Positions 3,669 to 53,117 of a stretch of DNA of 64,000 bases are shown here, one piece after another. Position 1 is the first letter of the stretch; each line of letters starts with the position of its first letter. The stretch covers positions 86,070-150,069 of the forward strand of contig JAGOVG010000001.1 of the NCBI GenBank assembly GCA_018060845.1, in the 5' to 3' direction. The notes under the pieces were generated by a model. It saw nothing but the letters and a program-made list of their open reading frames with translations, was not told where the DNA came from and did no database searches. The stretch comes from Candidatus Woesebacteria bacterium (GTDB lineage Bacteria; Patescibacteriota; Microgenomatia; UBA1400; UBA12108). Position numbers and translations under genes: made by a program.

Positions 3669-3854
3669 TCATTCAGTATAGCTGTAAAGTCGAAAATCCG
3701 TAAATCGGTATATTTTGATATACTTTGATATATATTCCTAATCACCTCTGGTATTTACTACCCTCACATCTGGTGTATTATCCTATAATTAGTTGACAAA
3801 TGGGGACTTTTTGGTACGATGTGTCACTTAAGCGAGGTTAATTAGCCTCGGTAT

Positions 3855-14374: not shown

Positions 14375-15331
14375 TCAGATTTTCAGATTATTAACAAGAT
14401 CAATGAATTCAGAGAAGGAGTTACTTACCTGAAAGCCAGCTTTTGTTAGCGCCTCACGCTTGGCGGTGGCAGTGACCCTATCTTTGTCGGCTTTGGCTTT
14501 GGCGTGACCAAACTGGGGTGATTCGGGGAAGAGGCTAGAGACGGTTCCGGCAATGTGAGCTAATACTTGCTTGGTAAATCTTCCTTCTTCTTTTAGTTTG
14601 ACCAGATCATATTCGTCCTCGCCACCTAGCTCACCATAATAGAGAACCGATTTTGTCTCTGGATCATTTTCGGCTAGTATAAAGGCGTCTCTCGGTGATA
14701 AAACAGGAAAGCGGTCACCACCAAAGCTAAGGGCAAAAGACAATCGAGCGCCGCCACTGGTTGCGATATTAATTAGCTCGTTGGTCATACCACCACTAGC
14801 AGATAAAACTGCCACACTACCCGGTTCTGTAAGATGTGACTCGTTGATCTGGACCGGCGTAATCCCACCGATTGGCCCGAGCTTGAGAACACCGGGAACC
14901 AGGAGGCCGACTGATGCAGGTCCTACTATTAACTTTGAAGAGTCACTATTCAACTTGATAAGGTTTTGCGAGTGCAGCTCGGGAACATTTTCGGCAAAGA
15001 GAGCGGCGCCACAAGCGTGTGGTAAGTGCTTGAGAAATTCTTCTGTACTAGATAGCGTGCGGCGACCTGAGAGGAGGTTGAGGAGCCAGAGATTTGAATT
15101 CGAATTTCGAAGTTCGAAATTAGTAATTGAAGTAAGGGTGGGAATAAGAATTTCTTTTCTACCCCAGAAATACTTAGCAAAACCTGAGCGGCCAGTGACT
15201 ATCCCTAGAATACTGCCCTCCCTTTTGCCAGATAAATAATCAAAATCGAGGATGCTCTGAATGATCCCGTCGTGGTTACCTAGGACTAATATTTTGTTGA
15301 TGCCACTTCTGATGTCTTCAATACTAATCAT
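14375..15331 (-). CDS. aclA: ATP-citrate lyase, CoA-binding/phosphohistidine domain (succinyl-CoA-synthetase-alpha-like)
   Basis: ILDFDYLSGK, YFWGRKEILIP, PGSVAVLSASGGMTNEL and catalytic-His motif QFGHAKAKA match the ACLY central region. Confidence 0.8.
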   Translation of the reverse strand: MISIEDIRSGINKILVLGNHDGIIQSILDFDYLSGKREGSILGIVTGRSGFAKYFWGRKEILIPTLTSITNFELRNSNSNLWLLNLLSGRRTLSSTEEFLKHLPHACGAALFAENVPELHSQNLIKLNSDSSKLIVGPASVGLLVPGVLKLGPIGGITPVQINESHLTEPGSVAVLSASGGMTNELINIATSGGARLSFALSFGGDRFPVLSPRDAFILAENDPETKSVLYYGELGGEDEYDLVKLKEEGRFTKQVLAHIAGTVSSLFPESPQFGHAKAKADKDRVTATAKREALTKAGFQVSNSFSEFIDLVNNLKI

Positions 15332-16455
15332 TGTGACCTCATGAGATAATTATTTACTTCGGTTACTACCTGAGTAAGAGGCGTCTCGTGACCATAGACA
15401 CACCCGAGGAGACTATTGTCGCTTAAGAAGTCGTGCATTAGCTTGAGTCCTGCCGCTTCGTTAGGACCGCCACGCCTGACAAACACTTTGACGCCGCTAT
15501 TGTTTAGTGAGTCTTTTTGCTCAGATAGAGCTCTGATTATTCCTTTAAACGTCTTAGCTACATCGGTAAAGTTGGCGACGCCGCCAGCAATAATTATGGC
15601 TTTTGGCGTTTTGTTTTTGATCAAGAGCATTTGCTTGAGAATAATTTTGGTATAGGAGTAGACGTCGTCGTCAGTTGGGGCACCACTGTACTCACCATAG
15701 TTGGCGAGCTGACCACCTAGACCTAGATCTGCGACTTCGTCGGCGAGGACTAGGCTAGCCCCACCCCCCGAGAGGAGCATCCAGATACTTCCATCCGGAT
15801 TTATAAGATGAAACTTAAGGCTAGCGGGGGTACTGTTATCCAGCTCGGCGATAGCCCGCTCTGACTCTGAGAGGAGTCGATCAGGGATTGCGGGGAGAGT
15901 AGAGCCAGCAGAGTCGATCTCAGCAGCCATATCGAGTGGAATAATTTTTTCACCCCTAATTACAATCGGATTCATCTCTAAAAAGGCGATATGGTGAACA
16001 TCGAGTTTGGGGATTAACTCTTGATTAATAAACTCTTCGAGGCGAGTCGGGAGTTTGTCGGTCACACTATCCCAGTGAGACTCGATTTCGACCCCACCGC
16101 TTTTACTATATTTGATATCCCAACCTTCACGTGCGCGAGTGAGTGACAAATATCGCTCCGCCCCGCTATCGTGCTCGTAGACTGGTTCTATTAAAAAATT
16201 GGTCCACCCCTGCTTGGCCCAGTCCGCAGTTACCGATTGGACGTCTTTTGGAGAAATATTGATTTTGACGAGACCTAGTTTGCCTCTTTTTTTGATCCCT
16301 TGGTCGACCTTGAGGACGAGGTTGGTGTCACCAAAGTGTTTTTTTATCTCAGATGCAGTAGTTTCCGCAGTCGCGGCAAGACCCTGGAATTTGAGATCAA
16401 AAATGGGATAGAGAGTAGTCTTAGCTACAAATTCGGAGATTTTTTGTCGGGACAT
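15328..16455 (-). CDS. aclB: ATP-citrate lyase, ATP-grasp subunit (AclB-like)
   Basis: LVLKVDQGIKKRGKLGLV, FLIEPVYEH, LINPDGSIWMLLSGGGASLV, LANYGEYSGAP and VFVRRGGPN give near-collinear identity with the ACLY N-terminal ATP-grasp region. The ATGA overlap with the next ORF suggests translational coupling. Confidence 0.85.
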   Translation of the reverse strand: MSRQKISEFVAKTTLYPIFDLKFQGLAATAETTASEIKKHFGDTNLVLKVDQGIKKRGKLGLVKINISPKDVQSVTADWAKQGWTNFLIEPVYEHDSGAERYLSLTRAREGWDIKYSKSGGVEIESHWDSVTDKLPTRLEEFINQELIPKLDVHHIAFLEMNPIVIRGEKIIPLDMAAEIDSAGSTLPAIPDRLLSESERAIAELDNSTPASLKFHLINPDGSIWMLLSGGGASLVLADEVADLGLGGQLANYGEYSGAPTDDDVYSYTKIILKQMLLIKNKTPKAIIIAGGVANFTDVAKTFKGIIRALSEQKDSLNNSGVKVFVRRGGPNEAAGLKLMHDFLSDNSLLGCVYGHETPLTQVVTEVNNYLMRSQ

Positions 16456-17830: not shown

Positions 17831-18301
17831 TTATAGCTTGGATTGTTGAATAATATTAGTTGTTGAGACTGCGGGGTTGTGTGTATAAACTACCTGCAGC
17901 TCGCCCCCATACTTTTCAACTAACTTGGTCTTTTTATCTTGATGAGCAGTGTGACTACTAACGGCTAAGATAGTAGGACGGACGCTCGCAATCAAACTCT
18001 CAAATGCGGCTGGGTTGTTAAAATCTTTATCAAGAGCAATCAGGTAATCGGCGTAGGGAGTTAGATGATCTAGGCGGGTGGATTGAGTCTCCACTGGTCT
18101 ACCCTCCCCCTTAAGGACTCTAGCACGCTCGTCTGACTCGACTGCAACTACTAATATGTCTCCTGCTTTTTTGGCAGCATTTAAAAAATTAATGTGCTCC
18201 TCGTGCAATAGATCAAAAAACCCGGTCGCGAGGACCAGCTTGTTATCAGTATTACGCAGCTGGGTAGCTATGGGCGCAAATGACTTGATACTGTAATGCA
18301 T
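17831..18301 (-). CDS. Cytidylyltransferase-like nucleotidyltransferase (HldE domain II / RfaE-like)
   Basis: LVLATGFFDLLHEEHINFL...GDILVVAVESDE...LKGEGRP, the HxGH-type motif of the cytidylyltransferase superfamily. Confidence 0.5.
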   Translation of the reverse strand: MHYSIKSFAPIATQLRNTDNKLVLATGFFDLLHEEHINFLNAAKKAGDILVVAVESDERARVLKGEGRPVETQSTRLDHLTPYADYLIALDKDFNNPAAFESLIASVRPTILAVSSHTAHQDKKTKLVEKYGGELQVVYTHNPAVSTTNIIQQSKL

Positions 18302-22807: not shown

Positions 22808-25147
22808 ATGACAATGGCAAAGAACTTTGATCACACGGCAGTAGAATCCCAGATTTATGATGAGTGGGAGAAGTCGGGGGCTTTTCAGCCTCGTGAATCC
22901 GTAAACCCGTCTAACCGTAAATCCGTTAATAAACCTTTTACCATAGTGCTCCCTCCCCCTAATGCCTCTGGCAAGATGCACATGGGGAATGTACTGATGA
23001 TTGCGATAGAGGACTTGATGATCCGCCACCACCGAATGAAGGGTGATCCAACCCTTTGGATCCCAGGAACAGACCATGCTGGGTTTGAGACGCAGATCAC
23101 CTACGAGCGAGAGCTAAAGAAACAAGGAAAGTCACGGTTTGAGTTTGACCGCAGTACTCTATACCAAAACATCTGGGAATTTGTGCAGAATAATAAGAGT
23201 CAGATTGAGGGACAGATCAAACAGATGGGTGCCTCAGTTGATTGGAGTCGCTACACCTTTACACTCGATCCACACGTAATAGAAACGGTTTATACAACAT
23301 TTGCCAAGATGTATAAAGAGGGATTGGTTTACCGTGACAACTATATGGTTAACTACTGCCCCAAATGTGGGACGACTTTTGCTGATCTAGAGATACTGCA
23401 CGAAGAGAGAGTGGGGAAACTTTATTATATTCGTTATGCCGTAAATCCGTTGTCCCGTAAATCCGTAAAGACAGAATATATCCAGGTAGCGACAACGAGA
23501 CCTGAAACGATCATGCTAGATACTCATATTGCGGTGAATCCTAAAGATAAAAAGCGAGCAAGTTGGATCGGAAAAAAGGTGATTAATCCCCTAACGAATA
23601 CCGAGATGGAGATAATCGGCGATGAGTTTGTGGATCCTAAGTTTGGGACAGGGTTTGTTAAGTTAACACCTGCTCATGACAAGAATGATTACGAGGCTGG
23701 CAAGAAACATGGATTGCCATTTATTGTGGGCATTGGGATGGATGGGCGGATGACTTCTGCAGCTGGCCGCTGGGCTGGCAAAACTGTGTTTACTGCAAGA
23801 GAAGAAGTGGTCAAGGAGCTAACTGAAACAGGGGCGATCGAAAAAGTAGATGACAAATATAACCAAAGTGTCACGGTGTGTTACAAGGGTGGCCACGATA
23901 TAGAGCCAATGATGCTGCCCAACTGGTTTGTAAAAGTTGAGTCACTCAAAAAACCTGCGCTTGAAGCAGTGACTAGTGGGAAAGTAAAGATTTATCCCAA
24001 GTGGCGAGAGATAACCTATACCAAGTGGATGGAGGAGATGCATGACTGGCCCATTAGTCGACAAGTGGTTTGGGGGATCAGGATACCAGTGTGGTACGAG
24101 GTCGGAAAATCCGAAAATCAGAAAATCCAGATAACTTTCTTAAATAAGGAGAAAAATGTAGTGAGTGGCACGATAGGTGAACTGCTTGCAACATATAGTT
24201 TTGAAGAAATACGGGACGGTCTGCAGACACTGATTGCACCAGCTGGGTGTGAGATGGTGGTGTCGGCGACTAGTCCAGGTGAGGGATGTCTGCAAGAAAC
24301 AGATACTTTTGACACCTGGTTCTCTTCTGGACACTGGCCACTAGTTACGCTTAAATATCCCGACTCAGACGATTTTGCCAAGTTCTACCCCACCTCAGTA
24401 CTAGAGACTGGATGGGAGATCATCCGGTTCTGGGTGTCACGCATGATTATGTTTGGGATCTACCTGACCGGCAAACCTCCATTTGAGTATGTCTACTTAC
24501 ATGGACTAGTTAGATCGCTCGATGGACGCAAAATGAGCAAGAGCCTGGGCAACGTAATAAACCCCGACGAATACATGGAGAAGTATGGAGTGGATGCTCT
24601 GCGAATGGGGCTAATATCAGGTACTGCAAATGGTAAGGATTTCGCTTTCCCCAAAGATAAAATTATCGCTTACCGCAACTTTGCTAACAAGCTCTGGAAT
24701 ATGGCACGTTTTTACCACATGATGGTAGACCCCACTTCGTCCCGCGAGGGCGGAACTTCGTTAGGGGCAAGGGAAATTAAGTGGTACGAGCCAGGGATGG
24801 AGGGGTTAACAACCAGCGACACTGAGATCATGAGCAAGTTAAACGACACGATAAAAATGACTGATGAGCTACTAGAGAAGTTCCGCTTTGCGGAGGCAGC
24901 TGAGACGATTTACCATTTTATGTGGGATGAGGTGGCGGCAAAGTATCTAGAAGAAGTAAAGAATCGAGAAGATCAGGATATTGCCCTGACTGTCCTTAGA
25001 CATGTACTACTAACAGGCCTCAAACTACTGCATCCATTTATGCCGTTTGTAACAGAGGCGATCTGGAAAGAGATGCCAAGGAAATACAATGACATGTTGA
25101 TAGTTTCGAAGTGGCCCTCCTACACTCAGGCACCGACGAGTAAATGA
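22808..25147 (+). CDS. valS: Valyl-tRNA synthetase (compact form)
   Basis: PPPNASGKMHMGN (HIGH region, ValRS-type PPPNxTG), VATTRPETIM and KMSKSLGN. At 779 aa it lacks a long C-terminal coiled coil. Confidence 0.8.
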   Translation: MTMAKNFDHTAVESQIYDEWEKSGAFQPRESVNPSNRKSVNKPFTIVLPPPNASGKMHMGNVLMIAIEDLMIRHHRMKGDPTLWIPGTDHAGFETQITYERELKKQGKSRFEFDRSTLYQNIWEFVQNNKSQIEGQIKQMGASVDWSRYTFTLDPHVIETVYTTFAKMYKEGLVYRDNYMVNYCPKCGTTFADLEILHEERVGKLYYIRYAVNPLSRKSVKTEYIQVATTRPETIMLDTHIAVNPKDKKRASWIGKKVINPLTNTEMEIIGDEFVDPKFGTGFVKLTPAHDKNDYEAGKKHGLPFIVGIGMDGRMTSAAGRWAGKTVFTAREEVVKELTETGAIEKVDDKYNQSVTVCYKGGHDIEPMMLPNWFVKVESLKKPALEAVTSGKVKIYPKWREITYTKWMEEMHDWPISRQVVWGIRIPVWYEVGKSENQKIQITFLNKEKNVVSGTIGELLATYSFEEIRDGLQTLIAPAGCEMVVSATSPGEGCLQETDTFDTWFSSGHWPLVTLKYPDSDDFAKFYPTSVLETGWEIIRFWVSRMIMFGIYLTGKPPFEYVYLHGLVRSLDGRKMSKSLGNVINPDEYMEKYGVDALRMGLISGTANGKDFAFPKDKIIAYRNFANKLWNMARFYHMMVDPTSSREGGTSLGAREIKWYEPGMEGLTTSDTEIMSKLNDTIKMTDELLEKFRFAEAAETIYHFMWDEVAAKYLEEVKNREDQDIALTVLRHVLLTGLKLLHPFMPFVTEAIWKEMPRKYNDMLIVSKWPSYTQAPTSK
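22897..22928. repeat. CCGTAAA-type heptamer micro-array, in-frame within valS (encodes NPSNRKSVN)
   Basis: ATCCGTAAACCCGTCTAACCGTAAATCCGTTA. Confidence 0.6.
23439..23470. repeat. CCGTAAATCCGT heptamer micro-array, in-frame within valS (encodes NPLSRKSVK)
   Basis: CCGTAAATCCGTTGTCCCGTAAATCCGTAAAG. Confidence 0.6.
24104..24130. repeat. GAAAATC(C/A) tandem heptamer x3 within valS
   Basis: GGAAAATCCGAAAATCAGAAAATCCAG encodes GKSENQKIQ. Confidence 0.5.
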
Positions 25148-27801: not shown

Positions 27802-28680
27802 TTAGCGATCTTTAGCTTTTTCTGCCTTTAGATATGGATTGGGCATCCAGGACTCAATCATGTCCTTGGTAACTGGATCTGCCAACTTCCAGAGCGCTTG
27901 GTGGAGAGAGATCAATGAACTTGCGAGATTACTGCTTCTGATTTTGATTCCCCAGACTTCTTTGTCTTTGACTGAGACTATCCAGACACGATCGCCTTTG
28001 AGCCGGACCATAATATTAAAGTTTTGCATCTCAAATGGGAGGTAGCGAAACTGAGCACGATCTAGGTAGTGAGGGTTGCGCTCGACCTGATAAGAGAGGA
28101 CGTGTTTGGTCCAGTCGGTCATTGGGGTTAGATTGTACTCAATCCCCCTCCCACCCACACGTTTTTTAATACCTCGATCAACCCCTTTGTTCATTTCTAC
28201 CCCACCGGTCGCATCCATCGGGACTTGATAATCAAAAACATAGGAATCTTCATCGACTCCGTCGTAGTCAAACATGACGTAGTTGGCGCCCTCCATTCCT
28301 GGGAAAAACTGAAAATCAGAATCTGTTGTGTCTTTGAGATATTCTTTTTTTAGCCAAGGGAGGATTTCAACAATATCAACTTCCTGAGAATTTAGTGATT
28401 TTTGTTTGGTGTGAATGATGTCTCTGAGGACGCTCGGGTTTTTGACTATCACCTTGGTTTGCTGCTTCATGAGCCCCGTTGCACTCTCTAGTTCGACCAG
28501 ACCCTTTAGAGCGAGATCAGTTAAGACGGCATAGACAGTGGTACGAGCGATCCCGGTCGCTTTGGCAATTTTGAATGGCGAAGTTTGACCTAGCTCCACA
28601 GCTTTTTGGTAAACAATGGCTTCGTTGTCTGACAAGCCAAAGTTTTTTAAGACTTCGATTGTACGTTTTTGATAATCCAT
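27802..28680 (-). CDS. TrmB-family transcriptional regulator (paralog 1 of 4)
   Basis: N-terminal HTH with LGLSDNEAIVYQKAVELGQTSPFKIAKATGIARTTVYAVLTDLALKGLV. C-terminal TrmB-like effector domain. Confidence 0.65.
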   Translation of the reverse strand: MDYQKRTIEVLKNFGLSDNEAIVYQKAVELGQTSPFKIAKATGIARTTVYAVLTDLALKGLVELESATGLMKQQTKVIVKNPSVLRDIIHTKQKSLNSQEVDIVEILPWLKKEYLKDTTDSDFQFFPGMEGANYVMFDYDGVDEDSYVFDYQVPMDATGGVEMNKGVDRGIKKRVGGRGIEYNLTPMTDWTKHVLSYQVERNPHYLDRAQFRYLPFEMQNFNIMVRLKGDRVWIVSVKDKEVWGIKIRSSNLASSLISLHQALWKLADPVTKDMIESWMPNPYLKAEKAKDR

Positions 28681-28779
28681 TTTTCCCTCCCCTACTGTTG
28701 TTTACTGACGACAGTGATCGTCACTTTTGACACTAAGTATAGCAGGGGAGTAGGATACGAGCAACTATGGAGGATAGAT

Positions 28780-29553
28780 ATGTGCACGCAAGCAGTAAAG
28801 AGAGTAAATAATACCTGGTACCTTATGAAGACCCGTGACCCAGTGTCATGGATGCGGCACGAGGATGAGATCAAGCTCTTTGACTCCCCTACTGATAAGT
28901 ACCGCAAGCTGATTATCCAGAACCCAGTGCCTTACGAGGATGGATATTATGGAGGGATTAATGAGCAGGGAGTGGCCTTTATCTCGACATTTGTCAGAAC
29001 TAGCGAAGACCAGATCAGTTATATTCGCAAGCCATATATCAGGTTAATTTTGAATGCTGCTACTGCCAAAGAAGCTGTCGAGATAATCAAGAGCTTTAAC
29101 CCAAAAATTGGTGGGAATATGTTTGTCGCAGATCCAGATGAGTGTTACGGGATAGAAGCTACAGCTCATGAATACTTTGTCGAGCAGATCGATGATCAAG
29201 CAGTAAAGGCTAATCATTTTTGTCATATACCTGATCGGAATATCAACTTTAACAATGATCCAGAGTTTGAGATATGGAGTAAGACGCATGAGACCAGAGC
29301 TACAGAACTTGTTGCAGAGGTAGTTACTCTAGATGATTGCGAGCAACTACTGTCAGACCGAGCTAACAGTGGTACTAAACGGGCGATCTGTACCACACCA
29401 GAAGAAGCCCCGGTATATACCTACTCAGCGTTCGTGCTTGATACTAATAACAAGGTGGTGAGATATGCACAGGGATGCCCGGGTATAGTCGGGTTTAAGG
29501 AGTATTCGTTTAAGAAACCACCAAAGAACACTGCGACAGAACAGGTCGACTAG
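28780..29553 (+). CDS. Ntn-hydrolase-like protein (choloylglycine hydrolase / linear amide C-N hydrolase family-like)
   Basis: N-terminal MCTQAV with Cys2 as putative nucleophile, followed by an R-D pair (KTRD) as in CBAH/PVA enzymes. GGAGG RBS 7 nt upstream. Start trimmed from the longer ORF at 28669. Confidence 0.4.
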   Translation: MCTQAVKRVNNTWYLMKTRDPVSWMRHEDEIKLFDSPTDKYRKLIIQNPVPYEDGYYGGINEQGVAFISTFVRTSEDQISYIRKPYIRLILNAATAKEAVEIIKSFNPKIGGNMFVADPDECYGIEATAHEYFVEQIDDQAVKANHFCHIPDRNINFNNDPEFEIWSKTHETRATELVAEVVTLDDCEQLLSDRANSGTKRAICTTPEEAPVYTYSAFVLDTNNKVVRYAQGCPGIVGFKEYSFKKPPKNTATEQVD

Positions 29554-29568
29554 ATTACAATAACTCAC

Positions 29569-30756
29569 ATGGCAATAATCAAGATAGCAGAGCGAAATAT
29601 TCAAACTTTCTTTTATACCGAGGGGTTTAGGAGTCTGGTTTTTACAATCCCTGTCTGGATAGCATATCTACAGGAGCGGATCTCGATCCCACAGATATCA
29701 CTGTACCTGGCTATTGGATTTGCCACCCAGCTCATCCTAGAGCTGCCAACGGGAGCACTAGCAGACCTAATCGGGAGACGTAAAACCGTTATTCTGGGTC
29801 ACCTAATCGACTTTGTGCAGTACGGATTGTTTGCATTCGCCGTAACATTTCCCCAATTTGCTGTCCTCTCTGTTTTGTCTGGGACAGCTGAGGCGCTTCG
29901 CTCTGGGTCGCTCGAAGCACTGGTGTATGACTCGCTCAAACAGGAAAAACGGGAATCGGAGTTCCAATCCGTGATGGCAAAAATTGGTAAATGGTTCCAG
30001 ATAGGGCTGATGACTGGGACACTGCTCGGTGGCTTTATGGCGAGCTGGTGGGTGGCCCTGCCTTACCTGGCATCGTCTTTTGCCGTCTTTTGTGCAGGGA
30101 TCTGTGCCACGCGCTTTGTTGAGCCAACAATTGATAGCGAGAAGTTTGGGCTGCGCAACTACCTCCGACAAATTAAGTGGGGAGCGATAGAAGCCTTTAA
30201 GACCCAGAAGCACCGGGATATGTCGCTGTACTACATAGCTGTTGGGTCAATTACCTGGCTGTGTGCCACCTATTTTAACGATTCGATGTTGATTACCCTC
30301 GGCTTTGGTGGTGAAGAGCGCGGGATGATAGCGGCAGCACTAAGACTAATTAATGTGGTCGTGATAGCCAAACTACTGACTCAAGAAAAGTTATTCGATT
30401 TTCGCCGGACGATCATGTTCTTTCCTATCCTTATGTCTTTGGCATTACTACCCGGGTGGTGGCTGCAGGGATACTGGGGAGTCCCGTTTGTGGGTATGGC
30501 GATGATGGCTTCGACTGCTCGGTGGATACTGCTCGGCAAATATACTAACGCGGTTTTTTCCTCTAAATATCGGGCAACGGCGATCTCGGCCCTGTCTATG
30601 GCAATTAGTGTCATCTATATTTTAGGGGTAGTCTTGGCGGGACTGATCATGGGCAAGTACGGAGACACGAGACTCATATATAGTCTACTCGGGTTAATCA
30701 CAGTGTTCACTGTACCTTATCTTGGATACAGGCTAGTTGCAAATAAAGCTCGTTAA
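29569..30756 (+). CDS. MFS transporter (paralog)
   Basis: 12-TM profile. Motif LPTGALADLIGRRKTVILG (MFS loop 2-3 signature). Confidence 0.75.
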   Translation: MAIIKIAERNIQTFFYTEGFRSLVFTIPVWIAYLQERISIPQISLYLAIGFATQLILELPTGALADLIGRRKTVILGHLIDFVQYGLFAFAVTFPQFAVLSVLSGTAEALRSGSLEALVYDSLKQEKRESEFQSVMAKIGKWFQIGLMTGTLLGGFMASWWVALPYLASSFAVFCAGICATRFVEPTIDSEKFGLRNYLRQIKWGAIEAFKTQKHRDMSLYYIAVGSITWLCATYFNDSMLITLGFGGEERGMIAAALRLINVVVIAKLLTQEKLFDFRRTIMFFPILMSLALLPGWWLQGYWGVPFVGMAMMASTARWILLGKYTNAVFSSKYRATAISALSMAISVIYILGVVLAGLIMGKYGDTRLIYSLLGLITVFTVPYLGYRLVANKAR

Positions 30757-31607
30757 ATTAGTAAAACTGCACCAATAAAAGCCAAAACTGACCCAATTAT
30801 TTTATTGGGGATTCTGTTTCGCTCTTTGAGAAAAATGTAGCTGAGAATTGTTGTAGTAATAATACTTAATTGTTGTAGCGGTGAGATGATACTGGCCATA
30901 CCTCCTGCCTTGTAAGCTCCAAATATTGTGATGGAGGAAAGTGAATAAATGATACAGCATATTATCAGTTTTGCGAGAGTAGCTCTGTCGAAGTAGTGCG
31001 GGATAGCTTTTATTGAAGATGGTTTTACAAATAGTGTGAATATCCCAGGAAGAGTGAATGCTACAATCATATATGATGCAATGCTGTTGTATCGGCCAAT
31101 AATATAGGCGTCATTTATAAATGCAACACCAAATAGAAATGCACCCGCTGCTGCATAAAGGTGACCCAAGCTTAGCTTCCATTTTGATCGAGTAATATTG
31201 ATCACCACTATCCCACTGACTATTAATAAAATGCCTAGGTAGTTAGAGACCTTTAAGCGCTCTCCCAACAATACTGAGGCAGAAATGATTGCCCATATAG
31301 AGCTAGAGGAAAAAATGACGGCAACTTCTGAAGCATCGGCTAGTTTAAAGGCTTTGAAGGTAAATATATTGCCAAGACTGTAAAAGATGGTCATTACTAT
31401 CAGGTTTACCCATAGATCGGATATGTTGGGCAACTCTAAACTGTTGGTTGCTAAGGTATATATCAAGAATAATAGAGCAACTATTGTTTGAAACACAAAT
31501 CCTAGAGCGTAAGCGTCCCCCTGCTTGTTTGATAACAGTACCTTCTGCAACACCCTGGCAATAGAACCAAATAGTGCGCTAAGCAGTGCGAGCGTAATCC
31601 AACTCAT
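30753..31607 (-). CDS. EamA/DMT family transporter
   Basis: 10 TM helices with two EamA-like halves. AT-rich gene. Confidence 0.7.
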   Translation of the reverse strand: MSWITLALLSALFGSIARVLQKVLLSNKQGDAYALGFVFQTIVALLFLIYTLATNSLELPNISDLWVNLIVMTIFYSLGNIFTFKAFKLADASEVAVIFSSSSIWAIISASVLLGERLKVSNYLGILLIVSGIVVINITRSKWKLSLGHLYAAAGAFLFGVAFINDAYIIGRYNSIASYMIVAFTLPGIFTLFVKPSSIKAIPHYFDRATLAKLIICCIIYSLSSITIFGAYKAGGMASIISPLQQLSIITTTILSYIFLKERNRIPNKIIGSVLAFIGAVLLI

Positions 31608-31623
31608 ATGAGAATGATATCAC

Positions 31624-32817
31624 TTATCTATGCATGAATGATCTAGTTTTTGTAAATGATCTTTTTAGTGTGATTGTTAATAATATGACGACATATATCG
31701 AGAATAGCGTAGGGAGGTTTTGGATTTCAGTCATGTAGGCGAAGGCCATGGTCAGAAAGATATATGGTATCTGACTAAATAGTGCGAGAGTGGAGAGAGT
31801 GGTTGCGCGGTGTTTGGAGTCTGTATGCTCGTTGATAATGGTAGAGGTTAAGGGCTTAACGACATTCTCAATACTATTAATGATTAGGTAGTATGCTGCG
31901 CCAATTAGAGGGTTATTTGTTGTGGCGGCAACTAGAAAAGCAAGCGTGAAAGCAAGTAGACTAAATGTTGTTAATTTCTGATCTCCGAATCGTATGCGAA
32001 GTTGTGCAAATTTAAATGATACATAGATGGCGGGAATTGAGATCGCAGCAAATAGGTATCCGAATGTCTCACCGGAGTAGCCAAAATAAGCGGCGGTCGA
32101 CTGGCGAACAATACCTTGGTAGAGCTTAATGAAGGTGGCAAAGGTAAAGAGAGACAACAAGTATGGTCTAAGATTGTTATTAAAAAGTGTGATAGTCCCC
32201 TCTTTAAGATGCGCTAGGTAGTTACGAAAATTAAACCTGACAGTGTCTACTTTAGGTTCTTTCATAAAAATGAGAATAAGAATTGAGAAGATTAGAAAGA
32301 TTGTCCACGCATAAAATGGATAGGTGGGACTCTGGCCATAGAGATAGCCACCAATAACGGTTGAGAAAAGAGTGGCAGAAATGGTGATCGAAGATGATTT
32401 ACCAATAACTTCGGAATATTTGTCTGCTTTCTTTTTTTCTTTGAGGGAATCGTAGGCTAGAGCTTCGGTTGCGCCAGAGTGAAAAGCAAAACCAATAAAC
32501 ATAATTGAGTTACCAATGAGGAAGTGTTCGAATTGAGTAGAGTTAACAAGTATTAGACAGGAGATTAGTTGAAAGAGGCTTCCCATAATCAAAGTGTTGC
32601 GTTTACCTAAAAGGTCTGCGAGTACGCCTGAGGGAACTTCCATGATAATACCTATCAAGACTGCGATTCCTTCGACTAGTCCTACTTGGCTCTGTGAAAT
32701 ATACTGGCGGAAGTAGAATACCCAATTGGGGAGAATAAACCAGCCGTTAATGAACAAAGTTAACCAATAAAAGAGCCGAATATTGCTGATGCCGAAATAA
32801 GGGAAGTGTCTTTTCAT
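31624..32817 (-). CDS. MFS transporter (paralog)
   Basis: VPSGVLADLLGKRNTLIMG, 12 TM. Start set at MKRHF (GGGGGA RBS), 13 nt after the upstream stop. Confidence 0.75.
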   Translation of the reverse strand: MKRHFPYFGISNIRLFYWLTLFINGWFILPNWVFYFRQYISQSQVGLVEGIAVLIGIIMEVPSGVLADLLGKRNTLIMGSLFQLISCLILVNSTQFEHFLIGNSIMFIGFAFHSGATEALAYDSLKEKKKADKYSEVIGKSSSITISATLFSTVIGGYLYGQSPTYPFYAWTIFLIFSILILIFMKEPKVDTVRFNFRNYLAHLKEGTITLFNNNLRPYLLSLFTFATFIKLYQGIVRQSTAAYFGYSGETFGYLFAAISIPAIYVSFKFAQLRIRFGDQKLTTFSLLAFTLAFLVAATTNNPLIGAAYYLIINSIENVVKPLTSTIINEHTDSKHRATTLSTLALFSQIPYIFLTMAFAYMTEIQNLPTLFSIYVVILLTITLKRSFTKTRSFMHR

Positions 32818-32830
32818 AAATCCCCCGTCA

Positions 32831-33703
32831 CTATGATTTTTGGAAGATTTTTGATGGTAAGTTACCAATGATAATTGCTATAACGATTAACAATCCACCA
32901 TATAAATCTGTGGTGCTAGGAATTTCGGCAAAAAGTAGGTAGCCAAATAGAGTTGCAAACACGACTTCAGAAGAGATAGCTATAGTGCCTAGGTTTAAGT
33001 CAAAGTGTTGAAAACCATAGAGTAGTAGGTAGTTAACACTAAAGAGTAGAGCCCCAAAAATAATACCTACTACCCAGCTAGATGTAGTTATTGTGGGAAT
33101 TTGAAATGTTGCTGATTGGATCATAAAAATAGTTGCGACTATTATTCCCCCGATTTGTGGAATTAATGTCAAAACTACGCGATTTATTTTGCCTGACAGG
33201 TGTTTTCGGAAAGAATTGGAGACCACATCAAACAAACCGCCAACTATTCCTAATAGTATTCCAACATTAAATGAGTCAAATCCTTTTGCAAAGAAAGAAA
33301 ATCCGACCACTACCAACGCAAGGCTAAGAGCTTTTTGTAATGTAATTGTTTCTTTAAACACCAACATCCCAATTAAAAGAGAAGAGAAAATAGAACCTAG
33401 ATAAAACGAGAATATTGATAACATTATTGTGGTATTGAGAACAGATAGTGTGTAGCAAATGACGCCTATTGGAAAGGAGATACCAAATAGTAGTAGATAT
33501 TTAGGCGATACTCCCTCAAAATTGAGCTTTATTTTGGTAGTTATAATGATTAACAGGGCTACACCAAGAGCCATAACATTTCGAAAAGCAATTTGTTGGT
33601 AAGATGATAGATCGACAGACAAAAGTCTAACCCACACACCAAACGAGCCAAAAATAAGGCCTGCAAAAATTAGTGAGAGTAATCCAAGAGTTGATCGTTT
33701 CAT
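32831..33703 (-). CDS. EamA/DMT family transporter
   Basis: 10 TM, EamA repeats. Confidence 0.7.
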   Translation of the reverse strand: MKRSTLGLLSLIFAGLIFGSFGVWVRLLSVDLSSYQQIAFRNVMALGVALLIIITTKIKLNFEGVSPKYLLLFGISFPIGVICYTLSVLNTTIMLSIFSFYLGSIFSSLLIGMLVFKETITLQKALSLALVVVGFSFFAKGFDSFNVGILLGIVGGLFDVVSNSFRKHLSGKINRVVLTLIPQIGGIIVATIFMIQSATFQIPTITTSSWVVGIIFGALLFSVNYLLLYGFQHFDLNLGTIAISSEVVFATLFGYLLFAEIPSTTDLYGGLLIVIAIIIGNLPSKIFQKS

Positions 33704-45974: not shown

Positions 45975-45997
45975 CATAAATCTCAAATCTTAAATTC

Positions 45998-47212
45998 TCA
46001 AATTCTCAAATGGGAATCTTGAGTTCTGTGTGAATAATACAGGAGAGAGATAAAAATGAGAAGCTCGGTAACACCAGTAATAATAGCTGCAGCAACTACT
46101 CCATGGTGGGGGATAGCCCAGAGGTTGGCGGAGACGTTTAGGAGTGCGGCGATTATGTATATTTTTAAGACTAAGCCATCTTTGGACTTGGCCACAAGAT
46201 CCCACATGAGTGGTGCGGTTAGGTAGAAGAGTGGGAGAGAGAGCGAGAGTATGCGTAGAGTGGTTATCGAGAGACCCAGCTCTGGCTTGATATAGATTAT
46301 GAGAGGAGCCAGGACGTAGGTAGCAATACCAGCGAGGAAGCCGAGGGAGCCGAGTGTTTTTAGGGTAGGAATGAGCAGACTCTCTTTGTTTTTGAGCATG
46401 AGAGGGTAGAGAGAGTTCATGACAAAAACAGGCAGAACTAGGATTACGTCAAAAATGCGGTAAGCAAAAGCATACTGCCCAACCTCGCTACTAGTGCGAA
46501 AAACACCCAGGAGAATAGTGTCCACTTTGCTACTTAGGATACTAAAGATTAGGATGGCGCCCAGAGTAGAAGCGCGAAGAAGTGTTGGCACTACCTCCCG
46601 AAGATCACTAATCTGGATGTCTTTGAAGAGCAATCTGGGAAGTAATAAGAATGTTGAGACTGCCATTACAAAATACCCAAAGGTAATTGAGAGAGTAAGG
46701 CTCGGGAGAGTAGGGGATGAGCTTAGGTAATATAGCGTTAAGATGGTTGTCACTATAGTGCCGAGAATTACTGAGATTGTGGAGCGCCAATAATTCATGC
46801 TGTACTGAAAATAAGCATTGCCCGAGGTATAAATACTCTGGAATAGTATACCTATACTTGCTACCCAAAACAGCGACTTGATCTCTGGACTATAACCCCC
46901 AGGGAGTAGAAATACGAATGTGTTAAGCACCATGATCGCAACGAGTGCGAGCGCTAGTCGGGTAAGCATCACTCGCCGCGTTAACTGAAGCATCGAGGAT
47001 ACCCCTGTAGCCCTACGAACTGCGTCGGCATTTAGCCCAAAATCTATTACAGTAAAGCCTAGTGCGACGAGAACTAAGATTTTGCTCAAGTCTCCATACA
47101 GATAGAGTCCGGCGATTCTGATGGTAAAAAAGGTGGTAAGTAAGGTCAGGCCTGCCCCAAAGAACTTGGCGGTTAGCTGGGCTAGGGTGTTACTCGCGAT
47201 GTTTTTGAACAT
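45998..47212 (-). CDS. Polysaccharide biosynthesis/flippase (Wzx/MOP-like) membrane protein
   Basis: 404 aa, about 12 TM, N-terminal MFKNIASNTLAQLTAKFFGAGLTLL typical of Polysacc_synt family. Confidence 0.6.
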   Translation of the reverse strand: MFKNIASNTLAQLTAKFFGAGLTLLTTFFTIRIAGLYLYGDLSKILVLVALGFTVIDFGLNADAVRRATGVSSMLQLTRRVMLTRLALALVAIMVLNTFVFLLPGGYSPEIKSLFWVASIGILFQSIYTSGNAYFQYSMNYWRSTISVILGTIVTTILTLYYLSSSPTLPSLTLSITFGYFVMAVSTFLLLPRLLFKDIQISDLREVVPTLLRASTLGAILIFSILSSKVDTILLGVFRTSSEVGQYAFAYRIFDVILVLPVFVMNSLYPLMLKNKESLLIPTLKTLGSLGFLAGIATYVLAPLIIYIKPELGLSITTLRILSLSLPLFYLTAPLMWDLVAKSKDGLVLKIYIIAALLNVSANLWAIPHHGVVAAAIITGVTELLIFISLLYYSHRTQDSHLRI

Positions 47213-48428
47213 GGGAGTAGTTTACTACTTTGAGATAGAGTAAGAGGATAAGTAATCCCTGTGGAGAAGTCAGAAGGTAATGATCGAGGAGAAGAAGAGG
47301 AAATAATGGGAGATAATCGTAAAGCCGTATAGCCGTATAGCCGTATAGCCGTATTAAATAAATGATTGATAGGATCCCAGCCAAGCCAAACCAGGAAACG
47401 AAGAGGGTAAAGCTATTGTGGTCGGGCTGGAGGAGTCTGAAAGTAGTGTTTAGTTGAGGGTAAGAGGCAATACTAGCTTGAGCTCCTGTACCAAATATCG
47501 GGTAGTTAGCGATAGCTTTTAGTGAAACAGATTGCAGCGAGAGGCGCTCGGATAGGGATAGATCAGCTCTCTCGGGAACAACCAATGACCAATAACCAAT
47601 TGCTAGTGAAAATAGGATTGCAAAATACAGGGCGCGGACTCGGAGAGATTTGAGCATATAAACTGGGATGATAATGCCAAACAATGACAAGAGAGCCGAT
47701 CTACTCTGGGTTAGCAACGCCCCTAGAATAGTTATTAAGAAATAACTGTAATTAATTACTATATTTTTACTAAACCGAAGAATTATGAGGAAGGTAATGA
47801 CTAGCCATCCAGCGAGGACGTTGGGGTGACCAAAAGTACCATAGGCGCGTAGCACTACCTGGTCCATAAACATGGCCAAGGCGACCCCAGGCTGGCCCAC
47901 AGATACCATCCGCTCGCCTAGGTAGTAGAGAGGTCCCTGAATAGAGCGACCAAGCCATACTTGGGTGACTGAAAGTGAGAGTTGAAAAAGCGAAGCGAGG
48001 AACAAACTAGTGGTTAATAGCTTTTGATTAATAATCAATGAGAATGAAGAAAAAAACGAAATATAGAGCAAGAGATGAAGAGACCAGGAGAGGGTGGAGA
48101 GAGGGTTAATACTAAAGATAAGGTTGGATAAGAGAAGAATAATAAAATATGGTGCGCCGTAAATCCGTAAACCTGCCTGCGCAGGCAGGCCCGTAAATCT
48201 GTTTAGTGATAAGTAAGATATTATTAATAGGTCGAGGAAGTAGAGGGTGGGGGAGAGATAGTCGACCCGGACCCCATAGATAAGGGACGAGCTCGGCCAG
48301 AAATGCAAGCCCAACTGGGTCGGGATGAGAAAAAGGATAAGAAAGAGTACGACCCTCTTAGTTTTTTGGAGCCAAGATGAGACGGCGATCGACCCCTTGT
48401 CCCTCGGAATAAGTTGTGAGCGTTTCAT
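47190..48428 (-). CDS. O-antigen ligase/polymerase-like (Wzy_C-like) membrane protein
   Basis: Polytopic with an extracytoplasmic loop YPIFGTGAQAS. The 5' end overlaps jag, so the true start is probably internal. Confidence 0.4.
   Translation of the reverse strand: MKRSQLIPRDKGSIAVSSWLQKTKRVVLFLILFLIPTQLGLHFWPSSSLIYGVRVDYLSPTLYFLDLLIISYLSLNRFTGLPAQAGLRIYGAPYFIILLLSNLIFSINPLSTLSWSLHLLLYISFFSSFSLIINQKLLTTSLFLASLFQLSLSVTQVWLGRSIQGPLYYLGERMVSVGQPGVALAMFMDQVVLRAYGTFGHPNVLAGWLVITFLIILRFSKNIVINYSYFLITILGALLTQSRSALLSLFGIIIPVYMLKSLRVRALYFAILFSLAIGYWSLVVPERADLSLSERLSLQSVSLKAIANYPIFGTGAQASIASYPQLNTTFRLLQPDHNSFTLFVSWFGLAGILSIIYLIRLYGYTAIRLYDYLPLFPLLLLDHYLLTSPQGLLILLLYLKVVNYSHVQKHRE
47318..47356. repeat. 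CCGTATAG tandem octamer array (x3-4) in-frame at the 3' end of the ligase-like gene
   Basis: CGTAAAGCCGTATAGCCGTATAGCCGTATAGCCGTATTA encodes IRLYGYTAIRLY on the minus strand. Confidence 0.7.
48157..48205. repeat. CCGTAAATCCGTAAA micro-array flanking an 18-bp palindrome, in-frame in the ligase-like gene
   Basis: CCGTAAATCCGTAAACC-TGCCTGCGCAGGCAGG-CCCGTAAATCTG encodes RFTGLPAQAGLRIYG on the minus strand. Confidence 0.65.
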
Positions 48429-52013: not shown

Positions 52014-53117
52014 ATGAAAATAGAAATCTTACAAGAAGAGTTATTAAAAGGCATGGCCGTTGTAATGAGAGCGGTTTCGAACCGTACCCAGCTACCAGTT
52101 TTATCTTCTATTAGGATTGAGGCTAAGCCAACGGAGATCGTTCTTTCGGCGACTGACCTAGAGATAGGGATCAGGTTAGTCATATCTGCAAAAGTTGAGG
52201 AAGTAGGAGTTTTTGCAGTACCTGCAAAAACCTTTAGCGAACTACTCTCTACTCTCTCGCCAGGCAAACTCTCGATGGAGCTAAAAGAGATGGTATTGAC
52301 TATAAAGTCAGGAAGTTTTAAGGGCAAGATAACGACTGTCGACGCATCCGAGTTTCCGGTGCTACCCACAATGAAAGAATCTTTGATTGAAATGTCTTCG
52401 AGTGAGTTATCTCAGGGTATTTTGAATGTGGGCTTTGCTAGCGCCAAGGATTCCCTACGTCCCGTCTTAACTGGCGTGCTTATGGAGGTCTCACAGAGTC
52501 TGCGATTGGTAGCGACCGATGGATTCCGCCTAGCGGTAGCTACGGTCAAAATAAAAGGCTCTACAGCGACCCAGGGACTATCACTACTAGTTCCGGCACG
52601 AGCACTTTTTGAGTGTGGCAAAATTATCAAAGAGGGAGTGATTAAAATAGGATACCTACCAGAATCTAAGCAGGTATTGTTTGAAGGGGAGCAGTTGTTG
52701 TTTATTACTCAGATAATAGAGGGCAACTTTCCTGACTACAATAAAATCTTGCCCAAAGAGTTTGTGGAGAGGATAACTCTATCCAGAGAAGAGCTTCTGG
52801 GTGCTGTAAAAACAGCGCTTGTTTTTGCGAGAGATAACTCAAATATGATGAAGTGGACGGTTACACGTGGCAAGCTATCGGTAGCTGCTAGCTCGACAGG
52901 AAGTGGGGAGGGCTCGATTGAGGTGGGAGCCAAGACGGAGGGTGAGGAATCGCTAGAGGTTATTTTTAACGCAAAGTATGTGATGGATTATCTACAGCTA
53001 TTGAGCACAGAGTCGATCTGGATTGGGCTTGGTGGTAAGCTGGCACCAGGAATGATTGCGGAGAGTGACGCGGGTCGCGAAAATACTTTTTATGTAGTGA
53101 TGCCGATAAATGCGTGA
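52014..53117 (+). CDS. dnaN: DNA polymerase III beta subunit (sliding clamp)
   Basis: 367 aa, three-domain clamp, MKIEILQEELLKG...VMPINA. Confidence 0.9.
   Translation: MKIEILQEELLKGMAVVMRAVSNRTQLPVLSSIRIEAKPTEIVLSATDLEIGIRLVISAKVEEVGVFAVPAKTFSELLSTLSPGKLSMELKEMVLTIKSGSFKGKITTVDASEFPVLPTMKESLIEMSSSELSQGILNVGFASAKDSLRPVLTGVLMEVSQSLRLVATDGFRLAVATVKIKGSTATQGLSLLVPARALFECGKIIKEGVIKIGYLPESKQVLFEGEQLLFITQIIEGNFPDYNKILPKEFVERITLSREELLGAVKTALVFARDNSNMMKWTVTRGKLSVAASSTGSGEGSIEVGAKTEGEESLEVIFNAKYVMDYLQLLSTESIWIGLGGKLAPGMIAESDAGRENTFYVVMPINA

What the first reader, a model, noticed from the sequence alone, without database searches (positions are those of the whole stretch)
22897..24130. Dispersed short tandem heptamer repeats (CCGTAAA / GAAAATC) inserted in-frame within valS
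Three micro-arrays lie inside the valS coding sequence: ATCCGTAAACCCGTCTAACCGTAAATCCGTTA, CCGTAAATCCGTTGTCCCGTAAATCCGTAAAG and GGAAAATCCGAAAATCAGAAAATCCAG. Each keeps the reading frame and falls in regions that are variable between ValRS orthologs (the N-terminal extension, the segment before VATTRPETIM, and after WGIRIPVWY). The same CCGTAAAT(C) core recurs at 3694, 48157 and 62690 and as CCGTATAG x3 at 47318. A specific 12-mer would be expected about 0.01 times by chance in this window, so this is a real repeat family. It behaves like a small insertion-tolerant element or a recurrent replication-slippage hotspot.
Basis: seen in the sequence. Interest (0 to 1): 0.6.

Follow-up and report, generated by a model that had tools for sequence, protein, structure and literature searches.

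The report
Octamer repeat arrays inside essential genes
The valS gene of this Woesebacteria genome carries short in-frame arrays of an 8-base repeat (CCGTAAAT), part of a clade-wide set of 7- and 8-base repeats and tiny palindromes that sit in protein loops, so the finding is real but resembles repeat families already known from cyanobacteria and Rickettsia.

Summary
The three micro-arrays exist at the stated coordinates inside valS (22808..25147, +), but the unit is an octamer, not a heptamer. CCGTAAATCCGT occurs 4 times exactly (0.00 expected), and only lag 8 is enriched. The claimed copy at 62690 is one partial unit. Alignment of 120 ValRS orthologues shows that arrays 1 and 2 lie at indel hot spots in low-confidence loops. 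Array 3 is the shortest allele of a copy-number-variable site, not an insertion here. Close relatives differ by exactly three units: 24 nt for octamers, 21 nt for heptamers and 48 nt in another gene. The unit that would read TAA in frame is always altered. The family marks one clade: 13 sites in 323 kb of close relatives and none in 572 kb of distant CPR loci. Of the 7/8-nt arrays, 83% lie inside ORFs, in both gene orientations, and the CCGTAAAT arrays are all on one DNA strand. An 18-nt palindrome is nested in such arrays in two different genes and species. My best reading is a dispersed family of short tandem repeats that changes length by slippage, is filtered for reading frame, and spreads between lineages by recombination. 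How new sites are seeded is unresolved. I rate it a new variant of a known kind, of moderate interest.

The parts
22808..25147 (+). valS (valine--tRNA ligase, 779 aa), the host gene. It is 100% identical to an NCBI 'Candidatus Woesebacteria bacterium' protein.
   Evidence: ORF list and translation. Homology search with Pfam tRNA-synt_1 and Anticodon_1. AlphaFold2 model with pLDDT 87.3.
22891..22930 (+). Array 1: five octamer units (TCGTGAAT CCGTAAAC CCGTCTAA CCGTAAAT CCGTTAAT) encoding ESVNPSNRKSVN. It has three more units (24 nt) than relative L056, which has CCGTAAAT CCGCGAAC.
   Evidence: It falls in the lowest-confidence loop of the model (residues 31-40, mean pLDDT 51). Most orthologues lack it.
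23431..23470 (+). Array 2: five octamer units (TCGTTATG CCGTAAAT CCGTTGTC CCGTAAAT CCGTAAAG) encoding AVNPLSRKSVK, in the loop before VATTRPETIM. The unit that would read TAA in frame is altered differently in each relative: WIN CCGTTGTC, L052 CCGTCGTC, L055 CCGTTAAT.
   Evidence: Residues 211-220 have mean pLDDT 64. Other relatives carry a heptamer-periodic sequence here (AAGGTAC AAGGTGA AAGTGAA).
24102..24133 (+). Array 3: TCGGAAAA TCCGAAAA TCAGAAAA TCCAGATA (GKSENQKIQ). This is the short allele of a site that grows by 8- and 9-nt units in relatives (L031 and L057 about 6 units, L004 and L005 about 8).
   Evidence: TRF gives period 8, 3.0 copies, 87% matches. The region is well ordered in the model.
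24730..24767 (+). A fourth in-frame insert in valS: the hairpin-type element CCCCACTTCG-TCCCGCGAGGGCGGA-ACTTCGTTAGGGG (DPTSSREGGTSLGA). It adds 30 nt relative to most relatives and is shared only with L031. The related peptide 'DPTSPKASLGA' occurs at three different ValRS sites in other species.
   Evidence: RNA fold -20 kcal/mol, z-score -1.3. Mean pLDDT 60 for residues 641-650 and 73 for 651-660.
3690..3713 (+). Intergenic copy of the same family: TCGAAAAT CCGTAAAT CGGTATAT.
47317..47356 (+). Near-perfect array TCGTAAAG (CCGTATAG)x3 CCGTATTA, lying antisense inside the Wzy_C/O-antigen-ligase-like ORF 47190..48428 (-). It is translated as LIRLYGYTAIRLYD.
   Evidence: TRF 96% matches.. Conserved in the 90%-identical orthologue L054.
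48157..48202 (+). Composite element: CCGTAAAT CCGTAAA | 18-nt palindrome CCTGCCTGCGCAGGCAGG (48172-48189) | CCCGTAAAT CTGT, antisense in the same Wzy_C-like ORF (NRFTGLPAQAGLRIYGA). The palindrome is an exact +18 nt insertion relative to orthologue L054.
   Evidence: The only other copy in 846 kb of fetched DNA (L031 position 2480) is also flanked by CCGTGAA units, in a different gene.
45981..46013 (+). Array of another octamer family (TCTCAAAT x4) between two minus-strand genes. The same unit occurs at ValRS site 4 in other species (NLKFSNSQ), and a related array lies at 41518-41544.

Best explanation
The three micro-arrays belong to a clade-specific, dispersed family of short tandem repeats with 7- or 8-base units. 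Here the units are CCGTAAAT and its relative CCGAAAAT/CAGAAAAT. The arrays sit mostly inside protein-coding genes.

Proposed mechanism:
1. A short seed of the unit arises at a site. It comes either from a local sequence that already resembles the unit or from copying of another array (template switching or ectopic recombination). This step is inferred.
2. The copy number then changes by whole units through replication slippage or unequal exchange. This is inferred from the allele pattern.
3. In an essential ORF only changes of three units (24 or 21 nt) keep the frame. In the sense orientation the unit that would read TAA has to be mutated. In the antisense orientation (ATTTACGG) no frame contains a stop, so arrays stay near-perfect. 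These points are shown.
4. Only sites in structurally tolerant surface loops survive, so the same loops become indel hot spots in many species. This is shown.
5. Array-bearing segments move between related lineages by homologous recombination. The valS mosaic is shown.

The encoded peptides are most likely passengers without a function of their own.
For: - Period-8 tandem structure and enrichment.
- Arrays of period 7 and 8 occur at 4.7 and 4.7 per 100 kb in the window and 4.6 and 3.1 in close relatives. Distant CPR loci have 1.9 and 0.3, and shuffles about 0-0.3.
- CCGTAAAT arrays occur at 13 sites in 323 kb of close relatives, 0 in shuffles and 0 in 572 kb of distant loci.
- 30 of 36 arrays lie in ORFs, where the coding fraction is 0.94.
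- Alleles differ by exactly three units. At valS site 1, L056 has 2 octamers and WIN/L052 have 5 (24 nt). L055 has 1 heptamer and L001/L057 have 4 (21 nt). In the CTP_transf gene, L052 has +48 nt, which is 6 octamers.
- Site 3 varies by 8/9-nt units.
- The stop-prone unit is altered in every sense array, in a different way in each lineage. Antisense arrays are near-perfect.
- The inserts coincide with low-pLDDT loops and with indel hot spots across 120 orthologues.
- The nearest relative of WIN changes along valS: L052, then L057, then L031.
- Published context: heptanucleotide SSRs are the most abundant long SSR class in many bacteria, and polymerase slippage has been proposed as the cause (PMC4679880 and PMC4692102, both citing Mrazek 2007).
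Against: - Slippage from random local seeds does not explain why the same 8-base unit appears at about 10 unlinked sites. It also does not explain why all CCGTAAAT arrays are on one DNA strand or why 7 of 10 arrays begin with TCGT instead of CCGT.
- At site 2 the octamer array replaces a heptamer-periodic sequence, with a 15-nt length difference that is not a whole number of units.
- No population data were available, so unit-number polymorphism within a population has not been seen directly.
- Only about 80 kb of this genome was examined.
Confidence: 0.55

Rival explanations
1. The arrays and the tiny palindromes are non-autonomous, ultra-small mobile elements. They would be copied to new sites by an enzyme acting in trans, for example an HUH/RAYT-like single-strand transposase or a reverse-transcriptase-based process, as proposed for cyanobacterial small dispersed repeats and Rickettsia palindromic elements. 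Slippage would only be secondary.
For: - The same unit occurs at about 10 unlinked sites, in both gene orientations but on one DNA strand.
- The 18-nt palindrome shows a clean +18-nt presence/absence between 90%-identical orthologues. It lies at the same unit boundary in two different genes and species.
- Elements are nested: the PACAGRQG peptide sits inside another hairpin element in ValRS P0068.
- Hairpin families recur at different sites and genes, for example CGGGACACCGAAGGTGGGAGG in two L003 genes and DPTSPKASLGA at three ValRS sites.
- A +48 nt array appears in the L052 CTP_transf gene where relatives have no array.
Against: - The arrays have no terminal inverted repeats, no target-site duplication and no fixed length.
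- Allelic differences are whole multiples of three units.
- The heptamer array at site 1 looks like an amplification of a unit already present in L055.
- No transposase, HUH enzyme or reverse transcriptase is encoded in the window. Most of the genome was not examined.
Confidence: 0.27
2. The octamer is a functional nucleic-acid signal. It could be a strand-polarised site read by a DNA- or RNA-binding protein, such as a Chi-like recombination signal for AddAB, a chromosome-orienting signal, or a regulatory RNA site. Arrays would then be kept because of that function.
For: - The CCGTAAAT arrays show complete strand polarity across at least 45 kb.
- An AddB/UvrD-type helicase-nuclease gene lies just left of the window.
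- Recombination breakpoints in valS lie near array-bearing segments.
- CCGTAAAT arrays also occur in unrelated metagenomic contigs.
Against: - Positions are not conserved. The same loop holds different unit families, or none, in close relatives.
- Arrays decay by point mutation (L002).
- The arrays have no predicted RNA structure.
- Control octamer arrays are also found in large databases, so the metagenome hits do not show specificity.
- Many of the metagenome hits belong to one unrelated high-GC element.
Confidence: 0.08
3. The peptides themselves (VNPSxRKSV, SENQKIQ) are selected for a role in ValRS, and the nucleotide periodicity is a by-product.
For: The same frame (VNP.. RKSV) is used at sites 1 and 2 and in several species. 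The SENQKIQ core at site 3 is conserved among close orthologues.
Against: - The same DNA unit is translated from the opposite strand into unrelated peptides in a membrane protein (LYGYTAIR, RFTG..LRIYG) and also lies in intergenic DNA.
- Most ValRS orthologues lack the peptides or carry unrelated ones at the same loops.
- The segments have low model confidence.
- An octamer array cycles through all three frames, so 'the same frame' is automatic.
Confidence: 0.05
4. The arrays are chance or compositional artefacts, or assembly errors.
For: The arrays are short (3-5 units) and degenerate. TRF scores are low (34-41).
Against: - No shuffle reaches the observed counts.
- The arrays are reproduced in independent assemblies (L052/L053, L054, L055) and keep an essential ORF intact.
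Confidence: 0.02

Closest known systems
Long simple sequence repeats with 5-11 nt units in prokaryotes, including cyanobacterial STRR heptamers (Calothrix/Nostoc) and Xanthomonas/Nostoc GGGAATC-type heptamers (Mrazek 2007 as cited in PMC4679880; PMC4692102)
   Same: - Family-specific tandem arrays of a 7-nt (here also 8-nt) unit.
- Dispersed over the genome and restricted to particular lineages.
- Few units per array.
- Length variation between close relatives, with slippage proposed as the mechanism.
   Different: - The published families are mainly intergenic and under-represented in coding regions (PMC4692102). Here 30 of 36 arrays are inside ORFs, including essential genes.
- Units are 8 nt as well as 7 nt, and A/T-rich rather than G-quadruplex-forming.
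- The host is a CPR bacterium. A full-text search for Woesebacteria with 'tandem repeat' found nothing.
TAACTGA heptamer direct repeats of marine Beggiatoaceae, cyanobacteria and Bacteroidetes (PMC4679880)
   Same: - One orientation contains stop codons and the other is open, and this governs where arrays can sit in genes.
- Sporadic phylogenetic distribution.
- The mechanism of dispersal is unknown.
   Different: TAACTGA arrays lie mostly just upstream of start codons and are proposed to be regulatory. The arrays here are internal to ORFs, and the stop-containing orientation is tolerated because one unit in three is mutated.
Rickettsia palindromic elements (RPEs), selfish DNA inserted in frame in protein-coding genes (reviewed in PMC10969869)
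   Same: - In-frame insertion into unrelated housekeeping genes.
- Several families.
- Insertions compatible with protein fold (loops).
- A host with a reduced genome and a dependent lifestyle.
   Different: - RPEs are about 150 bp, palindromic, and encode a conserved peptide.
- The elements here are 24-48 nt tandem arrays and 18-70 nt hairpins.
- The arrays have no inverted repeats and vary by unit number.
Small dispersed repeats (SDR, 21-27 nt) of Nostoc punctiforme (Elhai et al. 2008, Genome Res 18:1484; cited from memory and from its mention in PMC3116915, paper not held)
   Same: - Very small dispersed repeats, below 30 nt, proposed to be mobile.
- Found within genes and nested in other repeats.
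   Different: - I could not re-read the paper, so details are unverified.
- The hosts are cyanobacteria.
- No link to octamer arrays or to CPR is known to me.
Phase-variable contingency loci (SSRs in coding regions of pathogens, e.g. Haemophilus; PMC8262952)
   Same: Tandem units that are not a multiple of three, within or near genes, changing by slippage.
   Different: - Contingency loci are long perfect arrays in surface or virulence genes that switch the frame on and off.
- The arrays here are short and degenerate, lie in essential housekeeping genes, and only frame-preserving alleles are seen.

Membership tests
Simple sequence (tandem) repeat with 7-8 nt unit | Head-to-tail copies of one short unit | tested here: met
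   TRF reports period 8 with 3.0-4.9 copies at all three valS sites and 4.6 copies at 47318.
Simple sequence (tandem) repeat with 7-8 nt unit | Copy number differs between relatives by whole units | tested here: met
   Differences of 24 nt (3 octamers), 21 nt (3 heptamers) and 48 nt (6 octamers). Site 2 differs by 15 nt, which does not fit.
Simple sequence (tandem) repeat with 7-8 nt unit | Polymorphism within a population (ongoing slippage) | not testable with these tools
   No read-level data were available. L052 and L053, from two samples, encode the same protein.
Dispersed repeat family (STRR-like) | The same unit at many unlinked loci, above chance, and lineage-restricted | tested here: met
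   13 sites in 323 kb of close relatives, 0 in shuffles and 0 in 572 kb of distant CPR loci. The 12-mer occurs 4 times against 0.00 expected.
Dispersed repeat family (STRR-like) | Predominantly intergenic location (as described for the published heptamer families) | tested here: not met
   30 of 36 arrays lie inside ORFs of at least 100 aa.
MITE / RPE-type mobile element | Terminal inverted repeats or overall palindromic structure | tested here: not met
   The octamer arrays fold no better than shuffles (z-scores +0.9, +0.9, -1.2). Only the nested 18-nt palindrome and the site-4 element are hairpins.
MITE / RPE-type mobile element | Target-site duplication at the insertion | tested here: inconclusive
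   None is visible for the 18-nt palindrome, and its boundaries are ambiguous by 2 nt. A CTTCGT direct repeat flanks the core of the site-4 element, but its meaning is unclear.
MITE / RPE-type mobile element | Presence/absence polymorphism at orthologous sites with clean boundaries | tested here: met
   The palindrome is +18 nt in WIN relative to L054. The site-4 element is +30 nt in WIN and L031 only. The array in the L052 CTP_transf gene is +48 nt.
MITE / RPE-type mobile element | A cognate transposase or other mobilising enzyme in the genome | tested here: inconclusive
   None was found among the window's ORFs. Only about 80 kb of this genome's 226.7-kb contig, the only contig examined, was seen.
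Phase-variable contingency locus | Long perfect array whose length changes switch the reading frame of a non-essential gene | tested here: not met
   The arrays have 3-5 degenerate units in valS and other housekeeping genes. All observed alleles are in frame.

The most novel reading that the evidence does not exclude
A clade of Woesebacteria (CPR) may be colonised by a previously undescribed set of ultra-small mobile DNAs that are polarised to one DNA strand. These would be 8- and 7-base unit arrays plus palindromes as short as 18 nt that target them. They would copy themselves into new sites, including essential genes, through a single-strand or template-switching mechanism tied to replication. 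That would make them among the smallest mobile elements known and a steady source of new peptide loops in the proteins of reduced genomes.
Probability: 0.25. Interest if true: 0.8.

Novelty: new variant of a known kind. Interest (0 to 1): 0.55.

Why it matters
Tandem repeats whose unit is not a multiple of three are normally kept out of coding sequence. Here they sit in essential genes of a bacterium with a small genome. They change in three-unit steps and add variable loops to housekeeping enzymes such as ValRS.

Practical consequences:
- This could explain part of the unusual length variation and low-complexity insertions seen in CPR proteins.
- It warns annotators and phylogeneticists that such segments are repeat-derived and recombining.
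- If the seeding step turns out to be active transposition, it gives a compact system for studying very small mobile DNA.
- The 18-nt palindrome nested in the arrays and the complete strand polarity are concrete, testable handles on the mechanism.

Tried and rejected
1. Metagenome scan for CCGTAAATCCGTAAATCCGT. It returned more than 120 loci, but most are unrelated high-GC contigs. 66 of 120 have GC of at least 0.6, and 37 share a GGGAGGGGGAGGGAGGG flank. None resembles the window's genes closely and none has the palindrome. In viral contigs the target gave 0 hits and two control octamer arrays gave 2 and 1. The scan therefore says nothing about specificity. It used the only metagenome scan, and a control octamer could not be run there.

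2. RNA or DNA structure in the octamer arrays: none. No Rfam family is present apart from one tRNA.

3. A mobilising enzyme in the window: none found.

4. Testing whether array polarity flips at the origin. I extended the sequence by 9.8 kb on the left and 6.6 kb on the right and found no further arrays, so this could not be tested. One look-up found nothing.

5. The Elhai 2008 paper could not be read.

6. Rejected: a heptamer unit, phase variation, a selected peptide motif, and chance.
Full report
**1. The observation**

The region lies in one intact ORF, 22808..25147 (+), 779 aa. The protein is 100% identical to a valine--tRNA ligase of a 'Candidatus Woesebacteria bacterium'. The window corresponds to about 86,070-150,069 of contig JAHZTO010000034.1, assembly GCA_020049755.1.

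All three micro-arrays are present, but each has period 8 (TRF):
- 22891-22930: TCGTGAAT CCGTAAAC CCGTCTAA CCGTAAAT CCGTTAAT
- 23431-23470: TCGTTATG CCGTAAAT CCGTTGTC CCGTAAAT CCGTAAAG
- 24102-24133: TCGGAAAA TCCGAAAA TCAGAAAA TCCAGATA

The signal is well above chance:
- A lag scan of the window gives dense tandem signal only at lag 8.
- CCGTAAATCCGT occurs 4 times exactly against 0.00 in shuffles.
- With up to 2 mismatches there are 15 matches against 3.2 expected, all on the + strand.

The further copies at 3690, 47317 and 48157 are real. The one at 62690 is a single partial unit.

**2. Are the arrays insertions?**

I aligned 120 ValRS orthologues. I then made codon alignments with DNA from 15 close relatives.

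*Site 1.* Most orthologues read FKPSESAKGKPF.
- WIN and L052 carry five octamers.
- L056 carries two (CCGTAAAT CCGCGAAC), exactly 24 nt fewer.
- At the same site L055 has one heptamer (GTCCAAG), while L001 and L057 have four (GGTCAAA type), exactly 21 nt more.

*Site 2.*
- WIN, L052 and L055 carry the octamer array.
- The others carry a heptamer-periodic sequence (AAGGTAC AAGGTGA AAGTGAA).

*Site 3.* In WIN this is only the conserved core SENQKIQ. Relatives are expanded by 8- or 9-nt units, or carry other unit families there. So this array is not an insertion in this genome.

It is a hairpin-type element shared only with L031.

An AlphaFold2 model (pLDDT 87.3) has confidence dips at three of these sites:

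| Site | Residues | Mean pLDDT |
|---|---|---|
| 1 | 31-40 | 51 |
| 2 | 211-220 | 64 |
| 4 | 641-650 / 651-660 | 60 / 73 |

**3. Coding constraints**

(CCGTAAAT)3 reads CCG TAA ATC CGT AAA TCC GTA AAT, so it contains one TAA per 24 nt whatever the frame.

In every sense-oriented array the unit that would read TAA is altered, and differently in each lineage:
- Site 2: CCGTTGTC in WIN, CCGTCGTC in L052, CCGTTAAT in L055.
- Site 1: CCGTCTAA in WIN, CCGTCTAG in L052.

The reverse complement (ATTTACGG)3 has no stop in any frame. The antisense array in the Wzy_C-like gene 47190..48428 (-) is nearly perfect, with 96% matches. It is translated as LYGYTAIR and is conserved in a 90%-identical orthologue.

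**4. A property of the clade, not of valS**

Arrays of three or more units, per 100 kb:

| Sequence set | Period 7 | Period 8 |
|---|---|---|
| Window | 4.7 | 4.7 |
| Close relatives | 4.6 | 3.1 |
| Distant CPR loci | 1.9 | 0.3 |
| Shuffles | about 0-0.3 | about 0-0.3 |

- CCGTAAAT-type arrays occur at 13 sites in 323 kb of close relatives. There are none in shuffles and none in 572 kb of distant loci.
- 30 of 36 arrays lie in ORFs, in both gene orientations, where the coding fraction is 0.94.
- Several unit families recur at different sites and in different species: CCGTAAAT, TCAGAAAA, TCTCAAAT, GGTCAAA/GGTTAAA, CCAGTTTT/CCCGTTTT, AAGATTT and ACAAATG.
- In another gene (CTP_transf-like), L052 has +48 nt, which is six octamers, where WIN, L055 and L056 have none.
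- All of the roughly 10-11 independent CCGTAAAT sites are on the same DNA strand in window orientation. The two-sided binomial probability is about 0.001.

**5. Nested palindrome**

At 48157-48202 the array is interrupted by CCTGCCTGCGCAGGCAGG.
- The 90%-identical orthologue L054 has the array without the palindrome, an exact 18-nt difference.
- The only other copy in 846 kb of fetched DNA is in L031, in a different gene. There it lies again between CCGTGAA units, at the same unit boundary.

Other small hairpin families also recur in different genes.

**6. Recombination**

The nearest relative of WIN changes along valS:
- L052 at aa 1-40 and 159-240, which hold sites 1 and 2.
- L057 in the middle.
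- L031 at aa 588-779, which holds site 4.

The patchy distribution of arrays among relatives is therefore explained by homologous exchange of segments. Repeated independent insertion is not needed.

**7. Interpretation**

The allele pattern (three-unit steps), the stop-codon filter and the loop locations support a slippage-plus-selection model for array length.

Slippage alone does not explain three things:
- The same unit appears at many unlinked sites.
- All CCGTAAAT arrays are on one DNA strand.
- Seven of ten arrays begin with TCGT rather than CCGT.

Some copying between sites must therefore occur, either through template switching or ectopic recombination, or through a true mobile mechanism. 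I rate the hybrid model 'dispersed tandem-repeat family, slippage for length, unknown templated seeding' at 0.55. I rate a true trans-mobilised micro-element at 0.27. No transposase, HUH enzyme or reverse transcriptase is encoded in the window.

**8. Comparison with what is known**

- Heptamer-rich long SSR families are known in cyanobacteria, Xanthomonas and Beggiatoaceae. They are described as mainly intergenic (PMC4692102, PMC4679880).
- Rickettsia palindromic elements insert in frame into housekeeping genes, but they are about 150 bp long and palindromic (PMC10969869).
- Nostoc small dispersed repeats are the nearest analogue for the tiny palindromes. This is from memory, as the paper is not held.
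- I found no description of this phenomenon for Woesebacteria or other CPR bacteria.

I therefore class it as a new variant of a known kind.

**9. Limits**

- Only about 80 kb of this genome and about 260 kb from close relatives were examined.
- No population data were available.
- The direction of replication is ambiguous. The DnaA-box cluster at 51.8 kb and the GC skew give conflicting readings.
- The metagenome scan was uninformative.

Noticed in passing
window 51783-51950 (between dnaA 50426..51772 and dnaN 52014..53117): A cluster of nine DnaA-box-like sites, three of them perfect TTATCCACA, suggests oriC lies here. Yet the GC skew stays positive on the + strand on both sides (about +0.13 to +0.25) and does not change sign.
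   Followed up: partly
window 24730-24767 (valS residues ~642-654): A hairpin-type in-frame insert (DPTSSREGGTSLGA) is shared only with L031. The related peptide 'DPTSPKASLGA' occurs at three different ValRS loops in other species, which suggests a separate family of small hairpin elements.
   Followed up: partly
window 48172-48189; L031 2480-2497: The 18-nt perfect palindrome CCTGCCTGCGCAGGCAGG is inserted in frame between CCGTRAA octamer units in two unrelated genes of two species. It is absent from a 90%-identical orthologue (L054).
   Followed up: yes
window 22808-25147 compared with L052, L057, L031: valS is a recombination mosaic. Its closest relative changes from L052 to L057 to L031 along the gene.
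   Followed up: partly
window 1742-1815 and 1859-2593: A LAGLIDADG homing-endonuclease-like ORF (244 aa) lies directly downstream of the only tRNA gene in the window (tRNA-Cys). It appears to be free-standing.
   Followed up: no
window 53169-62618, and beyond the right end (L182): A type IV secretion-like cluster lies immediately next to dnaN. It includes a TraG/VirB4-type ATPase, a PrgI-like protein and a large protein with a weak, below-threshold CHAP-domain match. Three T4SS pilin genes lie just outside the window.
   Followed up: no
window 13520-16455: Three adjacent genes have Citrate_synt, Ligase_CoA and Citrate_bind domains, an ATP-citrate-lyase-like set. They are conserved in synteny among the relatives, and several of them carry heptamer arrays (GGTTAAA) in other species.
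   Followed up: no
window 27802-41240: TrmB-family regulator genes recur next to EamA or MFS transporter genes (27802, 33732, 37690, 40431). These look like duplicated regulator-transporter cassettes.
   Followed up: no
arrays listed (e.g. window 22891, 23431, 47317; L052 2150, 5920; L004 5979): In 7 of 10 CCGTAAAT-type arrays the 5'-most unit begins TCGT instead of CCGT. This may be a boundary signature and is unexplained.
   Followed up: no
L062, L064, L072, L089, L103 and others (metagenome loci): 37 of 120 metagenome hits carry a GGGAGGGGGAGGGAGGG-like flank; those inspected are high-GC contigs reading GGGAGGGGGAGGGAGGG..TCAAAT(CCGTAAAT)2-3CCGTAACC. This looks like an unrelated repeat family that uses the same octamer.
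   Followed up: partly
L007, orthologue of window gene 17831..18301 (alignment column 82): A ~70-nt in-frame insert holding a near-perfect hairpin (GGGCCAGGCCTTGCAGGT...ACCTGCGAGGCCTGGCCC) occupies the same loop where L005 and L002 carry (AAAACTGG)3 and (AAAACGGG)3 and L052 carries six CCGTAAAT-type units. This is another multi-family hot spot.
   Followed up: partly
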